IMG/VR virus record: IMGVR_UViG_3300020045_005706 | Span: 1 to 39,116 of that record | Strand: one strand, 5' to 3' | Length of the DNA stretch: 39,116 bases | Source: a virus | Lineage: Duplodnaviria > Caudoviricetes | Part shown: positions 8,803 through 19,337 of the stretch, one piece after another | Position numbering within the stretch: the first letter of the stretch is position 1 | Layout: each line of letters opens with the position of its first letter | Made by a program: the position numbers and the translations under genes | The notes under the pieces: generated by a model | Database searches by the model: none | Told to the model about the DNA's origin: nothing | The model's input: the letters and a program-made list of their open reading frames with translations, nothing else

Positions 8803-9056
8803 CACACTGCACAAACCAATCCTGTAACCAACGCGCCCAATGTGACAATAGCGTGGATATGCGAGACGGCGACCGCGTAGTTTTTTTTGTGCGTAAACCG
8901 TTTGAGCCGTGCAAAGGCTTCGTGTGTACAACTCACCGTTTTGTTTATGTGCTTGGCAAAGGTGAGCGAGAATGCCGTGAGTGCGGGCATAGTGAAAATC
9001 ATTACCGTTTTGTATCGTGTGAGTGGGCTGGATATGGGGATATGAGAAATGCTTAA
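8799..9056 (+). CDS. Cys-rich hypothetical protein
   Basis: CxxxxCxxxxxC and CRECG motifs; GTGA overlap with the previous gene. Confidence 0.55.
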   Translation: MTHCTNQSCNQRAQCDNSVDMRDGDRVVFFVRKPFEPCKGFVCTTHRFVYVLGKGERECRECGHSENHYRFVSCEWAGYGDMRNA

Positions 9057-9792
9057 TCAAATAAAAATAGTTGTGCCGATTAGTGGCGGGAAAGACAGCC
9101 AAGCGTGTTTAAAATTGGCTTTACAAACTTATCAACCTGAACAAATTTTAGGCTTGTTTTGTGATACTCAATTCGAGCATCCGTTGACGTATCAGCACAT
9201 AAAAGACATTAGCAAAATGTACGGGGTAAAAATAGAGACGATATGCGCAGGTAGCGTCCCTGAAAAAGTTCGTAAGCACAATATGTTCCCCAATGGCGTA
9301 AGCCGTTTTTGTACCGACCAATTAAAAATACAACCATCAAAAAAGTTTTATGATGAATTGTCGAGAAATCAAGGCGGGTTTCAGGTCTGGTGCGGCATGA
9401 GGGCAGGTGAAAGCAACGACAGGGAAAAACGCTATCTTGATAAAATAAATACCGAGACATACGCCCCTCATGACGTGTTAGCCAGCTATCCGCAATACTT
9501 ACATAAACAGGGCGTTACATTTAGACTGCCTATTTTAGATTGGTCTTTTACTGATGTTGTTTACTTTTTAGGCGATGAAATAAACCCAATTTATAAAGCT
9601 GGAAAAGGAATTGACCGTGTCGGTTGTTTTCCATGCCTTGCCACAGGCGCAAAAAATCAGGCGCGACATTTTAATTTTGATGATTTTGGCAAGGCGCAAC
9701 GCGATATTGTCATGCAGTTAGAAAGCGAAATTACCAATAAAAACAAATGTCAAGATGATATGTTTCGCGGTTGTTCAATTTGTGCCATTTAG
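9049..9792 (+). CDS. PAPS-reductase-family (PP-loop) protein
   Basis: SGGKDS PP-loop, FCDT..EH..TY, RFCT..LK..P, G.RAGES..R, PILDW, RVGCFPC and a C-terminal CSIC. Confidence 0.85.
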   Translation: MLNQIKIVVPISGGKDSQACLKLALQTYQPEQILGLFCDTQFEHPLTYQHIKDISKMYGVKIETICAGSVPEKVRKHNMFPNGVSRFCTDQLKIQPSKKFYDELSRNQGGFQVWCGMRAGESNDREKRYLDKINTETYAPHDVLASYPQYLHKQGVTFRLPILDWSFTDVVYFLGDEINPIYKAGKGIDRVGCFPCLATGAKNQARHFNFDDFGKAQRDIVMQLESEITNKNKCQDDMFRGCSICAI

Positions 9793-15067: not shown

Positions 15068-15162
15068 TATAATTTAACTGTCGGTTGCAACGACGTAACA
15101 ATTTTATAAAAGCCCGTTTATTGTCTAGTATTGCAACTTCTAGATGGTTTCGGGCTTTTTTA
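15068..15162 (+). promoter_or_regulatory. Structured leader: -10 box, small hairpin and terminator-like hairpin with complementary loops
   Basis: TATAAT 15068-15073; GTCG-[GTTGCAA]-CGAC; AAAAGCCCG...TCTAG-[..TTGCAAC..]-CTAGA...CGGGCTTTTTT. Confidence 0.6.
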
Positions 15163-15175
15163 TTGGGGAATGATG

Positions 15176-15355
15176 ATGAAAACAGAATTACACAAATTTT
15201 GCGAAGATAAAGAATTTATGGCAAAAATGGACGCTTTACCGTTAGAACCTTGTGGAGAGCAGGAATTGACACCAGAACAGCTTGAAATGTGGCAACGTGG
15301 GCAAGATGCTTATAATAACGCGTGGAAAGACAAAGAATTTAAGGTAATACCATGA
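15176..15355 (+). CDS. Small acidic hypothetical protein (moron-like)
   Basis: GGGGA RBS at 15165-15169 before tandem ATGs; the track's TTG start at 15131 lies inside the RNA hairpin. Confidence 0.65.
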   Translation: MKTELHKFCEDKEFMAKMDALPLEPCGEQELTPEQLEMWQRGQDAYNNAWKDKEFKVIP

Positions 15356-15524
15356 AAACACTAATTATCATCGTCTTGCTATTTCCATGCACAGCCAACG
15401 CGCTATATTTAATGATATTGATTCATTTATGCCACTAACACCAGCAAAAATATCAGAAGCATTGCGACCAGCAATTAATGCTAAAAATCCAATTAGTCAC
15501 GACAACACAAAGGCGATAACATGA
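15352..15524 (+). pseudogene. Probable frameshifted small exported protein
   Basis: MKTLIIIVLLFPCTANA is signal-peptide-like; the -1 frame from about 15402 runs to a TGA overlapping the next ATG. Confidence 0.35.
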
Positions 15525-15718
15525 CGGATACAATACACACACCACCATCACACATTGTATTAACTCTGTTTGATGACAGACCAATAATTTGTCCTATTAA
15601 TTCGTGTATTTTTAAGAAGTCAACACTAAAAGGAAGTTATGTTTTATTTCAAGACAAAGAAATATCAGTAAAAGAAACTATTAATGAAATAATAGCAATG
15701 CTTAACAAGCTGCATTAG
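15521..15718 (+). CDS. Small hypothetical protein
   Basis: ATG ORF with a C-terminal VKET..EI motif; AT-rich. Confidence 0.6.
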   Translation: MTDTIHTPPSHIVLTLFDDRPIICPINSCIFKKSTLKGSYVLFQDKEISVKETINEIIAMLNKLH

Positions 15719-15770: not shown

Positions 15771-16604
15771 ATGACCGAAGAAACAGCAGAATACACACCA
15801 CCAGAACGCTACACCATTTTAAGCAACGAGCCAGAGCTACCAGCGGCAGTCACTGATGAAGTGGCGACACCAGAACCAGAAGCAGTTGAAACCGAAACCG
15901 AAACCGAAACCGAAACCGAACAAACGCCCGAAGCCAAAAAGAAAGATGCGCAGTCGAGAATCCGCCAGTTAGCAAACGAAAACCGCGAGCTTAAGGAATG
16001 GAAAGCGGCTCAGGAAGCGGAAAAAGCACAACCTGTTATTGCACCAGCAGACAAACCGAACCCAGCCGACTTTGTAGGCGGCAAGTTTAACGATGATTAT
16101 CAAGATGCGCTTGAAGCATGGAATGATGCCAGAGTCAGCGACAGAATAGCGCAAGCGTTAGCCGAACGGGAAACGAAGCAAGCAGTACAAACACAGGTAC
16201 AGACAATAAAAGCGAGAGAAAACGCCTTTAGAGAAACCCATACTGATTATGATGACGTTTTCCGTGCAGTTGATGATTCTGGTATTATTGACGACCAGTT
16301 AGTATTGAACGCCATTATTGAACTTGAAAATAGTCCTGAAATTATTTACCAGATTGGCAACGATGAAGACTTGCTTTATCAATTGGCAGTAATGACACCA
16401 GCGCAACGCCTAATGAAAATAGGCGCGTTATCAGCACGGGCAAGCGGTACAACTGCACCACCAGCGGCAAGAATTAGCCAAGCAGCAAAACCTATTACGC
16501 CCGTATCGGGTGGTAAAGCGGTATTGACAGGTGCGGCGGCAATTGAAGCGGCAGAAAAGGCGATGGATTATGATGCTTGGAAAGCGGCAAAGGCGGCGAA
16601 ATGA
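15771..16604 (+). CDS. Scaffolding protein
   Basis: Acidic and helical, between portal and coat; RIRQL, KPNPADF...YQDAL..W and KPITPV motifs; AGGA RBS. Confidence 0.8.
   Translation: MTEETAEYTPPERYTILSNEPELPAAVTDEVATPEPEAVETETETETETEQTPEAKKKDAQSRIRQLANENRELKEWKAAQEAEKAQPVIAPADKPNPADFVGGKFNDDYQDALEAWNDARVSDRIAQALAERETKQAVQTQVQTIKARENAFRETHTDYDDVFRAVDDSGIIDDQLVLNAIIELENSPEIIYQIGNDEDLLYQLAVMTPAQRLMKIGALSARASGTTAPPAARISQAAKPITPVSGGKAVLTGAAAIEAAEKAMDYDAWKAAKAAK
15888..15920 (+). repeat. In-frame tandem repeat (GAAACC)5 encoding ETETETETETE
   Basis: Read directly from the sequence. Confidence 0.9.
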
Positions 16605-17005
16605 AAAAAACATTAAACTACATCACAGCAAGTCAGTTAGCTAATAATTGTTTTGAAATGTTTCAGAAATTATTAACAATTGATGTTGAGCCAGAAGACG
16701 ATAATGAGCCATTAATTATTAAGCAATCTCATTCTGGATTTAATTATCCTAATCTATGCCATGCAGATTTAACTTTTAAAGACTTTCACGATAAATTTAT
16801 TGTTAAAGCGGTTAATAACTTGATTGATGAGATAAACAGTCAGCATCAACAGATAAAACAATCGACTGGTAAAGATGTTTCATTATTTTTTAGAGATTTA
16901 AAGCTACCCAATGGCTTTAATGGCGCGGATATAGTAAAGCATGACGGTATATCATTACGCATTATTACCGAATACGATGCCAAGTTAGACGAAATGATAG
17001 TGTGA
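16601..17005 (+). CDS. Truncated, internally deleted paralog of the major capsid protein (134 aa; 150 aa if the UGA is read through to 17053)
   Basis: Three colinear blocks match the coat at 17290-18546, e.g. DLKLPNGFNGA..GISLRIITEYD vs DLPLPKGVNEA..GLSLRMISQYD. ATGA-coupled to the scaffold. Confidence 0.7.
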   Translation: MKKTLNYITASQLANNCFEMFQKLLTIDVEPEDDNEPLIIKQSHSGFNYPNLCHADLTFKDFHDKFIVKAVNNLIDEINSQHQQIKQSTGKDVSLFFRDLKLPNGFNGADIVKHDGISLRIITEYDAKLDEMIV

Positions 17006-17032
17006 CTTGATGCTCTTTATGGGTTTTACCTA

Positions 17033-17061
17033 TTGACAAAAGCTAATAAATAAAGTAGTTT
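17033..17061 (+). promoter_or_regulatory. Putative sigma70 promoter upstream of the coat leader
   Basis: TTGACA (17033-17038), 17 nt, TAGTTT (17056-17061). Confidence 0.5.
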
Positions 17062-17289: not shown

Positions 17290-18546
17290 ATGGCAAACCA
17301 ACTATTAACCACCTCAAAAATCACCATGAACGCCTTAGACGTTCTGGAAAACCAACTCACATTTTCGAACAATATCGACCGCTCTTATGATGACCAATTT
17401 AACGGCGGTGGCGGTAAAATCGGCGCAACAGTAAATGTCAGAAAACCAGCGCGTAACATTGTTACAGTCGGTCAAGCTTTAGTGCCGCAATCAAGCGTTG
17501 AAACTTATGTACCTGTTACCTTAACTACTCAAGCGCACGTTGATTTATCATTCAGTTCACAAGATTTGGCATTGAATATTGACGAGTTTAAATCGCGCTT
17601 TATTACCCCCGCAATGGCAGCCTTAGCGAATAAAATCGACTATGACGGATTGCAAATGGCGTATAAAAATACCTATAACTTTGTCGGGACAGTCGGACAG
17701 TTGACAGGCACACCAACAAGCGCACAGGCTTTATTAGCCGTTGCCCAAGGTCAGCAAAAGTTAGACGAAAACGCCGCACCGCGAGACGGTAAACGGTCAG
17801 CTATTATCAACCCAGCTACACAAACTGGCTTGGTTACTGCTAACGCTACACTGTTTAACCCTCAACAAACCATTAGCGATATTTATAAAAATGGTCGTAT
17901 GGGTTCAAACGTATTGGGCTTTGATTTTTACATGGATCAAAACGTACCGATGCACACGGCTGGTACACAAAACGGCACTTTTGCTGTTAGTGCAGCGGCT
18001 CAAGGTGGCGGTAATACCGTACAAGCAGACGCGACAACACCATTCGCTTTAGCAACGGCGGCAATTACTGGCACATTAACTGCTGGTACTGTTTTCACAA
18101 TTGCCAACGTGTACGCGGTCAACCCACAGTCACGCATGAGTACTGGTTCACTGCAAAACTTTGTTGTTATGGCAGATACAGCGGCTTCTGCTACTTCCGT
18201 ATCAATCATGCCTTATCCGATTTTTAGCGGTGCGTTCCAAAACGTCACAAGCACCACAAACACTATCGCAGCATCGGCAACTTGTACTATTTTGAGCGGC
18301 TTGAATGCAGCAGTAGCACCACAAAACATCTTGATGCACAAAAACGCCTTTACATTAGCGTGTGCGGATTTACCACTGCCCAAAGGTGTAAACGAAGCAG
18401 CCCGCGGCAGTTCTAAAGCAGCGGGCTTGTCGTTGCGTATGATTAGCCAGTACGACATTCAGTCAGATAACTTTTTTAGTCGTATTGATGTATTGTACGG
18501 TTATAAGGCATTGTACCCTGAACTCAGTACCCGTCTAACAGGCTAG
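17290..18546 (+). CDS. Major capsid protein, P22 coat family
   Basis: MANQLLT..., KIGATVNVRKP, LANKID, GFDFYMDQN, HKNAFTLA and RIDVLYG motifs; AGGA RBS. Confidence 0.92.
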   Translation: MANQLLTTSKITMNALDVLENQLTFSNNIDRSYDDQFNGGGGKIGATVNVRKPARNIVTVGQALVPQSSVETYVPVTLTTQAHVDLSFSSQDLALNIDEFKSRFITPAMAALANKIDYDGLQMAYKNTYNFVGTVGQLTGTPTSAQALLAVAQGQQKLDENAAPRDGKRSAIINPATQTGLVTANATLFNPQQTISDIYKNGRMGSNVLGFDFYMDQNVPMHTAGTQNGTFAVSAAAQGGGNTVQADATTPFALATAAITGTLTAGTVFTIANVYAVNPQSRMSTGSLQNFVVMADTAASATSVSIMPYPIFSGAFQNVTSTTNTIAASATCTILSGLNAAVAPQNILMHKNAFTLACADLPLPKGVNEAARGSSKAAGLSLRMISQYDIQSDNFFSRIDVLYGYKALYPELSTRLTG

Positions 18547-18602
18547 ACACAAATAACCTTTTATAGTATAATGTACCCTCATTTAACAAGGGGTACATTA
18601 TG
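18544..18602 (+). promoter_or_regulatory. Promoter plus RBS-sequestering hairpin of the HNH gene
   Basis: TAGACA-17-TATAAT; perfect 10-bp inverted repeat TAATGTACCC (18569-18578)/GGGTACATTA (18591-18600) covering most of the SD and the A of ATG. Confidence 0.7.
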
Positions 18603-19337
18603 TGTAAAGTAGAAGGCTGTACAGTAACAAAGATTAAAGGGCATGGTTATTGCAATACCCACTATGCCAGATTCAAACGATTAGGAACTGTTGATTTAGT
18701 TAGTCACAAACAACCGATTGAAGAACGCTTTTGGAGGTTTGTTACAAAGCTAAGTGACGCTGAATGTTGGGATTGGACAGGTAGTAAAAACGCTAAAGGT
18801 TATGGTTCGCTACCTAATGGAAATGAGCAATTAGCACATAGAATTTCACACATTATTTTTAAAGGTGAAATACCAGATAAAATAATGGTTTTGCATCATT
18901 GTGATAATCCTAGTTGCGTTAATCCAAGTCATTTATATTTAGGCGATAATAAGCAGAATATGATTGATATGATTAGCAGAGGGCGAGCAAGACCACAAGG
19001 CGCACCACCTAAACTAACCGACGAACAAGTAAAAATTGTTGCAGAATCAGCTGAATCAGTTAGGGCATTATCTGAAAGATTTAATGTAAGTCGAGGAGTT
19101 ATTGAGCTTATAAAATCAGGAAAGACTTATAGTCACCTTGGTTTATCAATAAATAAAGCTGAAAAAGCAGAAGTAAATAGAAAAGGAAGTTTGAACGCTT
19201 CTGCTAAACTAACCGAAGAAACTGTTTTACTAATCAGAGCGTCAAACGAAAGTAATAGATTAACTGGGATAAGATATAATGTATCAACTTCCCTTGTATC
19301 AATGATAAAAAACCGTAAGGTTTGGAGTCATATTTAA
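18600..19337 (+). CDS. Free-standing HNH homing endonuclease
   Basis: CWDWTG...GYG...AHRIS...VLHHCDNPSCVNPSHL..G....N..DM; N-terminal CxxxxC..C..H and two C-terminal KLT-E-V HTH-like repeats; AT-rich. Confidence 0.9.
   Translation: MCKVEGCTVTKIKGHGYCNTHYARFKRLGTVDLVSHKQPIEERFWRFVTKLSDAECWDWTGSKNAKGYGSLPNGNEQLAHRISHIIFKGEIPDKIMVLHHCDNPSCVNPSHLYLGDNKQNMIDMISRGRARPQGAPPKLTDEQVKIVAESAESVRALSERFNVSRGVIELIKSGKTYSHLGLSINKAEKAEVNRKGSLNASAKLTEETVLLIRASNESNRLTGIRYNVSTSLVSMIKNRKVWSHI

What the first reader, a model, noticed from the sequence alone, without database searches (positions are those of the whole stretch)
16601..17053. Miniature paralog of the phage's own capsid protein between scaffold and coat
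Seen: three colinear matches to the 418-aa coat. N-terminus: NYITASQLANNCFEMFQKLLT vs NQLLTTSKITMNALDVLENQLT. Middle: QSH...LTFKDFHDKFIVKAVNNLIDEIN vs QAH...LNIDEFKSRFITPAMAALANKID. C-terminus: DLKLPNGFNGA..GISLRIITEYDAKLD vs DLPLPKGVNEA..GLSLRMISQYDIQSD. About 270 aa are missing in two blocks. Inference from the HK97/P22 fold: the N-arm, spine helix and P-domain strands are kept, while the E-loop and A/I-domain regions are lost. It is AT-richer, highly diverged and translationally coupled to the scaffold, so it is not a recent duplication. Possible roles are assembly nucleator or size modulator, dominant-negative inhibitor of competing phages, or decoy for capsid-sensing defences. I know of no described equivalent.
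Basis: partly seen in the sequence, partly recalled or inferred. Interest (0 to 1): 0.82.

Follow-up and report, generated by a model that had tools for sequence, protein, structure and literature searches.

The report
Swappable mini-capsid gene, broken here
This uncultured phage carries, in a swappable slot just before its shell-protein gene, a one-third-size, fast-evolving copy of that shell protein, predicted to keep only the inner core; intact relatives show signs of selection and likely act as decoys for capsid-binding proteins, but this phage's own copy has a premature stop.

Summary
The homology is real, but the gene is 16601-17005 (134 aa).

Six relatives were found (132-157 aa, mostly 22-35% identical). 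All four with known context sit between scaffold and coat. An intact one folds confidently (pLDDT 87) into an HK97 core: N-arm helix, spine helix and P-domain sheet, without E-loop, A- or I-domain. Codon patterns show purifying selection, with protein change 3-6 times faster than the coat's.

The slot is a cassette site. Of 15 close-clade junctions, 4 hold a full mini, 3 other coat fragments, 4 unrelated genes and 4 nothing, including the closest relative. So it is not an essential assembly part.

Best model (0.4): a non-polymerising capsid mimic that binds host capsid sensors. Rivals are a scaffold/coat binder, a competitor poison, or a repurposed fold. No binding was tested. The window's copy models poorly (pLDDT 69) and is probably dead or a sequence error.

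Ten literature searches found no description. This scan has reported similar mini-capsids on other genomes.

The parts
15771..16604 (+). Scaffolding protein gene (277 aa); its stop overlaps the mini's start
   Evidence: phrog_8865 head scaffolding protein, E 2e-31; ATGA overlap
16592..16604 (+). Cassette linker GGCGGCGAAATGA (ribosome-binding-like, plus stop/start overlap)
   Evidence: This motif or close variants start cassettes in 7 of 15 close-clade junctions and recur between cassettes in L006, L007, L008 and L046
16601..17005 (+). Mini-coat ORF as encoded (134 aa). Residues ~7-26 match coat 5-24 (N-arm helix), ~40-81 match coat 79-119 (strand and spine helix), ~92-134 match coat 353-397 (P-domain strands)
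17003..17005 (+). In-frame TGA at the column where five minis have Arg, one has Lys and 94% of coats have Arg; it cuts off most of the predicted last beta-strand
17006..17053 (+). Coat-like continuation behind the stop (LDALYGF, 17006-17026); the frame then runs into the promoter-like element and ends at TAA 17051-17053
17033..17061 (+). Promoter-like element before the coat: TTGACA, 17 nt, TAGTTT; the downstream border of the cassette slot
   Evidence: TTGACA lies in 14 of 15 close-clade junctions, TTGGCA in the other; the consensus scan did not call it, as its -10 box matches 3 of 6; function inferred
17290..18546 (+). Major capsid (coat) protein, 418 aa, P22 gp5 family
   Evidence: PF11651 E 1.4e-40; phrog_283 E 6e-79

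Best explanation
This is a non-essential, fast-evolving cassette gene derived from the phage's P22-type coat, predicted to fold as a lone P-domain core that likely cannot polymerise and likely works as a capsid mimic that occupies host capsid-sensing proteins, while the window's own copy carries a premature stop and is probably inactive. Shown: descent from the coat, position, patchy presence and purifying selection in the family. Predicted: the fold. Inferred: it is made with the scaffold; it stays unassembled because the A-domain (capsomer centre) and E-loop (inter-subunit clamp) are gone; it presents the spine helix and P-sheet to a binder; it competes with new coat for a host sensor without completing activation; alleles are swapped as hosts change sensors.
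For: Fold: AF2 from six minis alone gave pLDDT 86.9 and pTM 0.84. HK97-fold chains align over the whole model: 2e0z Z 8.7, rmsd 3.5, 117 aligned; CUS-3 Z 7.7, rmsd 5.0, 123 aligned; P22 Z 7.4, rmsd 3.8, 119 aligned. Selection: codon position 2 identity is 0.54-0.67 against 0.31-0.43 at position 3; omega is 0.21-0.57 in 4 of 6 pairs (2 saturated); 6 of 1000 neutral simulations reach 35% identity without a stop. Speed: dN is 0.67-0.89 for minis against 0.15-0.23 for coats, with dS 1.4-3.1 against about 1.45. Core positions are kept while coat-conserved N21, A113, N114 and D117 vary (Spearman 0.36). This points to a partner that varies, unlike the phage's own conserved coat and scaffold tail. Dispensable and swapped with other accessory genes. 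CapRel SJ46 is modelled to contact the P-domain beta-sheet and spine helix, where escape mutations map (10.1101/2022.05.30.493996, passages). DSAD1 shows that competing for a sensor's trigger site works (PMC11263360, abstract).
Against: No binding or defence test exists and the host is unknown. Avs7 engages mainly the A-domain, which the mini lacks (10.64898/2026.01.04.697583, passages). One review passage says capsid triggers shared a need for oligomerisation (PMC13728456), and Thoeris escape mutations lie in the P-loop and the E-loop (PMC12578639, one passage). A lone P-domain might activate a sensor rather than block it. At about 30% identity its surface no longer resembles its own coat. 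Z-scores of 7-9 are in the range the tool calls common, and Foldseek's best PDB hit was E 5e-3. The selection estimates are near saturation.
Confidence: 0.4

Rival explanations
1. Assembly tuner: the mini binds the phage's own scaffold tail or coat monomers through the kept N-arm and spine helix, buffering free scaffold or capping wrong nuclei.
For: In P22 the scaffold's basic helix-turn-helix binds coat N-arm D14, and spine residue R101 also matters (10.1101/2022.12.13.520362, passages); these are the parts kept. All minis are net acidic, -2 to -11. All four with context overlap the scaffold stop.
Against: 11 of 15 close relatives lack a full mini. Unrelated cassettes are coupled the same way. 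The scaffold tail is 55-95% identical to L008's in eight close relatives (34% in L010), while mini surfaces differ widely. No mini is closer to its own coat than to other coats.
Confidence: 0.2
2. Competitor poison: the mini joins or titrates the head assembly of co-infecting P22-like phages or satellites as a chain terminator.
For: Capsid homologues do redirect assembly: SaPI Ccm (PMC8569155, abstract). Patchy, swapped alleles fit a conflict gene.
Against: Minis are at most 35% identical to any of 36 coats tested, so no rival target is evident. No integrase turned up among the 35 window proteins scanned with PHROGs, so resident-prophage protection is less likely. Ccm keeps a full fold and forms pentamers; the mini lacks the A-domain.
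Confidence: 0.15
3. Repurposed fold: the P-domain core survives as a small stable scaffold with a new job unrelated to capsids or capsid sensing.
For: Only fold-core residues are conserved. A-domain-only HK97 proteins associate with metabolic enzymes (PMC8346489, passages). The model also resembles small non-viral proteins, DUF74/YbjQ-like, at Z 5.5-5.8.
Against: No new conserved surface motif is shared by the minis. The slot repeatedly captures other coat pieces, some still 78-83% identical in DNA to the coat, which suggests that coat-likeness itself is what gets kept.
Confidence: 0.18
4. Relic: the family is decaying debris of coat duplications at a recombination hotspot.
For: The window's copy has a stop. 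L008 holds a frameshifted chimeric second cassette, L135 a short remnant of a mini start, and L046's mini is fused to the next cassette.
Against: Six other minis are stop-free at mostly 22-35% identity, with the same breakpoints, a codon-position signature of selection and a confident fold. This rival may hold for the window's allele alone (about 0.6), not for the family.
Confidence: 0.07

Closest known systems
P22-type coat protein gp5 (Pfam PF11651, phrog_283; P22, Sf6, CUS-3)
   Same: Descends from it; keeps the N-arm helix, spine helix and P-domain sheet in order.
   Different: One third the size; no E-loop, A-domain, I-domain or C-terminal tail; below the Pfam cut-off (P0005 scores 11.2 bits against 24); dispensable.
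SaPIbov5 Ccm (PMC8569155, abstract)
   Same: A capsid-protein homologue put to a non-standard use.
   Different: Ccm is encoded by a satellite, occupies pentameric capsomers and reshapes the helper capsid; the mini is in the phage's own head operon and lacks the capsomer-forming domain.
T4 gp24 vertex protein (paralogue of gp23; role recalled, PDB 1yue matched at Z 6.6)
   Same: A second capsid-fold gene in the phage's own head region.
   Different: gp24 is a full-size structural subunit (390 residues in 1yue); the mini is truncated, patchy and fast-evolving.
Family 4 'A-domain' encapsulins, DUF1884 (PMC8346489, passages)
   Same: HK97 fold cut to about a third and kept as a stand-alone gene.
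   Different: The complementary piece (A-domain only), cellular, next to metabolic enzymes; the mini keeps the P-domain side and is viral.
DSAD1 anti-DSR2 protein (PMC11263360, abstract)
   Same: Works like the best model: a phage protein that competes with a structural trigger for a sensor's binding site.
   Different: Acts on a tail-tube sensor; no homology to the mini was tested; function is shown for DSAD1 and only inferred here.

Membership tests
P22-type major capsid protein (PF11651) | Sequence homology to the family | tested here: met
   BLASTP E 4e-9; phrog_283 E 2e-4 for the read-through form; HHalign 95.3%
P22-type major capsid protein (PF11651) | Reaches the Pfam gathering score over the full model | tested here: not met
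   No hit for the window protein; 11.2 against 24 bits for P0005
P22-type major capsid protein (PF11651) | Complete HK97 fold with A-domain and E-loop | tested here: not met
   Coat residues ~35-78 and ~120-352 have no counterpart; the model has two helices and five strands
P22-type major capsid protein (PF11651) | P-domain sheet with spine helix | tested here: met
   Met by prediction for the intact relative P0005; weak for the window's truncated copy, pLDDT 68.7 and best Z 5.1
Capsomer-forming capsid paralogues (Ccm, gp24) | Full-length HK97 subunit able to form pentamers through its A-domain | tested here: not met
   A-domain absent
Capsomer-forming capsid paralogues (Ccm, gp24) | Present in procapsids or virions | not testable with these tools
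   Needs particle proteomics; the phage is uncultured
Family 4 A-domain encapsulins (DUF1884) | Consists of the A-domain only | tested here: not met
   The kept segments map to coat 2-25, 79-119 and 353-407, outside the A-domain; no DUF1884 hit
Anti-defence competitive inhibitors (DSAD1-like) | Binds a host sensor and blocks activation by the trigger | not testable with these tools
   Host and sensor are unknown
Anti-defence competitive inhibitors (DSAD1-like) | Non-essential, patchily distributed accessory gene | tested here: met
   4 of 15 close-clade junctions hold a full mini

The most novel reading that the evidence does not exclude
Phages mint anti-immune decoys from their own capsid gene. 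A cassette slot between scaffold and coat repeatedly captures coat fragments; selection trims them to a soluble P-domain/spine-helix core that jams capsid-sensing immunity; and alleles are swapped or switched off as hosts change. This would be a counter-defence class built from the trigger itself, and a natural minimal HK97 fold.
Probability: 0.35. Interest if true: 0.9.

Novelty: new variant of a known kind. Interest (0 to 1): 0.7.

Why it matters
Capsid proteins are major triggers of bacterial immunity (CapRel, Avs7/8/10, Thoeris), and the passages I read describe escape by point mutation, not by a capsid-derived decoy. These 130-150 aa natural P-domain cores make that idea directly testable in laboratory strains. 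They also show which part of the HK97 fold stands alone, the complement of A-domain encapsulins. The slot holds coat-derived genes of several apparent ages, from 80% DNA identity to 30% protein identity, so it is a compact record of gene birth from an essential gene. The caveat is that this window's allele is probably the broken one; intact relatives such as P0005 are the better test objects.

Tried and rejected
Pfam: no hit for the mini. The first word-index search found only the protein itself. Two representative-search hits, P0004 (4172 aa, repeats) and P0007 (691 aa, repeats), were dropped as unrelated repeat matches. Most of the 85 and 13 homologue hits were in PF11651 with only 28-49% query coverage; those read were C-terminal coat fragments, and only the 7 minis and 2 full coats matched from the profile's start. 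tblastn of 50,697 GenBank phages found only full coats and chance hits. The GTDB scan for minis gave 0 of 122 candidates; the coat scan gave 7 loci, none with a mini. No mini lay beside 89 distant coats (<70% identity) that had at least 1 kb upstream. An RLDVLYGF[VA] scan gave 36 loci; 35 showed the peptide in my parse and only one, the P0005 contig, was a short gene. P0074 has no context. The Atlas gave nothing usable for the window protein. For P0005 it gave P22-coat clusters of 127-144 aa that may be fragments, a lead only. Sequencing runs: none was listed, so the TGA could not be checked against reads. Complex prediction: no job ran because the queue was full, so there is no verdict on mini-scaffold binding. 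An alternative genetic code was rejected because TGA ends several core genes. No structured RNA or tRNA was found. A profile search of PDB sequences with the minis found only chance hits. Literature searches with no description of such a gene: 0 papers; 0 papers; some searches were for background. The library lacks most subscription journals, and no supplements were read.

Full report
Setting. The window is a 39,116-base virus record with direct terminal repeats (CheckV completeness 56). It has a P22-like head module: terminase, portal (PF16510), scaffold (phrog_8865) and coat (PF11651, E 1.4e-40). No integrase appeared among the 35 window proteins scanned with PHROGs. The host is unknown.

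Observation. The ORF starts at 16601, overlapping the scaffold stop (ATGA), and ends at TGA 17003-17005, giving 134 aa. Read through with X, the 150-residue form matches the coat's C-terminal block at E 4e-9, and 0 of 1000 shuffles reach that score. The two N-terminal blocks are weak alone (78 and 30 of 1000 shuffles) but significant jointly (2 of 2000) and by HHalign (95.3%, E 2.4e-8). Kept coat segments are about 2-25, 79-119 and 353-407. The seven residues behind the stop are still coat-like. At the stop's column five minis have Arg, one has Lys, and 94% of coats have Arg; L008 uses CGA there. TGA ends several core genes, so the code is standard. No reads were listed, so a nonsense mutation and an assembly error cannot be told apart.

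Family. An index-free search gave two same-size relatives among 5 hits (P0005, P0006). Profile searches and locus screens added P0074, the mini domain of P0092, P0093 and P0094. That makes seven minis of 132-157 aa with the same breakpoints. They are mostly 22-35% identical; one pair is 85%. Each is 24-35% identical to the coats compared and none favours its own coat. In a tree of 7 minis and 36 coats the minis fall on one side of a branch (91/99, not starred). Long branches may pull them together, and the bootstrap had not settled. The four with context (window, L001/L008, L046, L133) all overlap the scaffold stop.

The slot. I compared 15 junctions from contigs whose coat N-terminus is at least 70% identical. 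L120 was left out because its contig ends at the scaffold stop, and L136 because it is 63% identical; L011 and L013 are near-copies. Four hold a full mini (window, L008, L046, L133). Three hold only shorter coat-derived ORFs (L007, L124, L012). Four hold unrelated ORFs (L006, L010, L134, L135), two of them with a GatB/YqeY-like end below the Pfam cut-off. Four are empty (L009, L011, L013, L014), and L009 has the coat closest to the window's, at 86%. Cassettes start at a GGCGGC-AAATGA-like linker in 7 of 15 junctions and end at the next linker or at a TTGACA element present in 14 of 15. Turnover is visible: a frameshifted chimera in L008, an in-frame fusion in L046 and a remnant mini start in L135. 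Coat fragments in L007, L012 and L124 are still 78-83% identical in DNA to their own coat over 36-75 bases. Whole-record searches of five relatives found no mini elsewhere (the records are incomplete). None of 89 distant coats with at least 1 kb upstream had one beside it. The mini is therefore dispensable, and its coupling to the scaffold belongs to the slot.

Selection. Across six pairs of the four minis with DNA, identity is 0.54-0.67 at codon position 2 and 0.31-0.43 at position 3. Omega is 0.21-0.57 in four pairs and undefined in two. Coats give 0.10 and 0.16, and the scaffold 0.22. dN is 0.67-0.89 for minis against 0.15-0.23 for coats, at dS 1.4-3.1 against about 1.45. In neutral simulation 6 of 1000 ORFs stay stop-free at 35% identity. 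Alignment at this distance inflates position-2 identity somewhat. Column conservation tracks the coats (Spearman 0.36, 119 columns), but several coat-conserved residues (N21, A113, N114, D117) vary among minis.

Fold. AF2 of P0005 on six minis, with no coats in the alignment, gave pLDDT 86.9 and pTM 0.84: helix 7-21, strand 36-47, helix 56-83 and four more strands. Nearly all of the top 50 VIA rows are HK97-fold chains, aligned from their N- to their C-terminal parts: 2e0z Z 8.7, rmsd 3.5, 117 aligned; lambda Z 8.2, rmsd 3.7, 130; CUS-3 Z 7.7, rmsd 5.0, 123; Sf6 Z 7.4, rmsd 5.4, 124; P22 Z 7.4, rmsd 3.8, 119. These Z values are middling by the tool's own note; the agreement with sequence homology is what carries the point. 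Foldseek's best PDB hit is the Sf6 coat at E 5e-3. The Atlas's own model of P0005 matches P22-type coats at TM 0.53-0.56. The window's stop removes about 10 of the 14 residues of the last strand. Its 134-aa model falls to pLDDT 68.7, loses the 36-47 and 88-93 strands and reaches Z 5.1 at best. This is not a same-sequence control. I put about 0.6 on a dead allele, 0.25 on a sequence error or minority allele, and 0.15 on read-through or a working short form; these are judgements.

Mechanism. Without A-domain and E-loop the protein should not build capsomers (inference from HK97 anatomy). What it keeps is the face that others bind on unassembled coat. P22 scaffold binds N-arm D14 and is affected by spine residue R101 (10.1101/2022.12.13.520362, passages). 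CapRel SJ46 is modelled on the P-domain sheet and spine helix, supported by escape mutants and exchange data (10.1101/2022.05.30.493996, passages). The phage's scaffold tail and coat are conserved, while mini surfaces are not and minis come and go. A variable foreign partner therefore fits best: a host capsid sensor, blocked competitively as DSAD1 blocks DSR2 (PMC11263360, abstract). Against this, Avs7 grips mainly the A-domain (10.64898/2026.01.04.697583, passages), oligomerisation was the common trait of some capsid triggers (PMC13728456, passages), and a mimic could trigger instead of block. My odds are decoy 0.4, own-assembly tuner 0.2, repurposed fold 0.18, competitor poison 0.15 and relic family 0.07. 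No binding was tested.

Known systems and novelty. The mini fails membership of the P22 coat family (no full fold, below cut-off), of capsomer-forming paralogues such as Ccm (PMC8569155, abstract) and gp24 (role recalled), and of A-domain encapsulins (PMC8346489, passages), of which it is the complement. Searches found no description of P-domain-only phage capsid paralogues. The library is partial and no supplements were read. Earlier AI notes of this scan report similar cut-down capsid genes on other genomes, in P22-, HK97- and T4-type phages. I did not test them and do not count them as support. What this locus adds is the cassette slot, its graded series of coat-derived genes and a broken allele.

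Verdict. A real, selected, apparently undescribed family of accessory mini-capsid proteins with untested function; this copy is probably inactive. Interest 0.7.

Noticed in passing
L007:5531-5776; L124:4843-5109: 81- and 88-aa cassettes with a coat-like N-arm start, a coat spine-helix copy and a strongly basic tail; omega 0.40 between them. A second, shorter kind of coat-derived gene in the same slot.
   Followed up: partly
L012:5742-6500: Three small ORFs and three TTGACA sites in the junction; one ORF holds a coat E-loop piece 80% identical in DNA to its own coat, and another starts MANQL like the coat.
   Followed up: partly
L006:3420-3797; L134:2416-2778; L046:3481-3843: A non-coat cassette of about 120-125 aa ending in a GatB/YqeY-like segment (Pfam E 4.5e-4 and 3.7e-5, below cut-off), fused in frame to the mini in L046.
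   Followed up: partly
L224:29957-30469 (MN850598.1, nieznany_60; phrog_8569): BFVD hits include small uncharacterised phage proteins of 116-191 aa at TM about 0.5, one a 170-aa protein of Escherichia phage nieznany. nieznany_60 has that length, but I did not verify that it is the same accession, and no sequence link to capsids was found. It could be a mini-capsid in a cultured coliphage.
   Followed up: partly
L200:2545-2838: 97-aa ORF upstream of a distant phage's scaffold, with an RRGFLG twin-arginine-like start (label recalled) and a coat spine-helix segment (E 4.5e-4).
   Followed up: no
L035:5554-6351; L032:10494-11291: A 266-residue reading frame carrying a segment like the coat's insertion domain (E 3.8e-5); it looks like a tail-tube gene by eye.
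   Followed up: no
window 18544-19337: HNH endonuclease gene (245 aa, 35% GC) right after the coat, with an 11-of-12 promoter-like site; present in L009 and absent from L006, L007, L008 and L010-L014.
   Followed up: no
window 15131-15718: A second variable stretch of small AT-rich ORFs between portal and scaffold, with differing content in relatives.
   Followed up: no
window 9049-9792: PAPS-reductase-family gene (phrog_424, E 6e-42), a family that includes DNA-modification enzymes (recalled).
   Followed up: no
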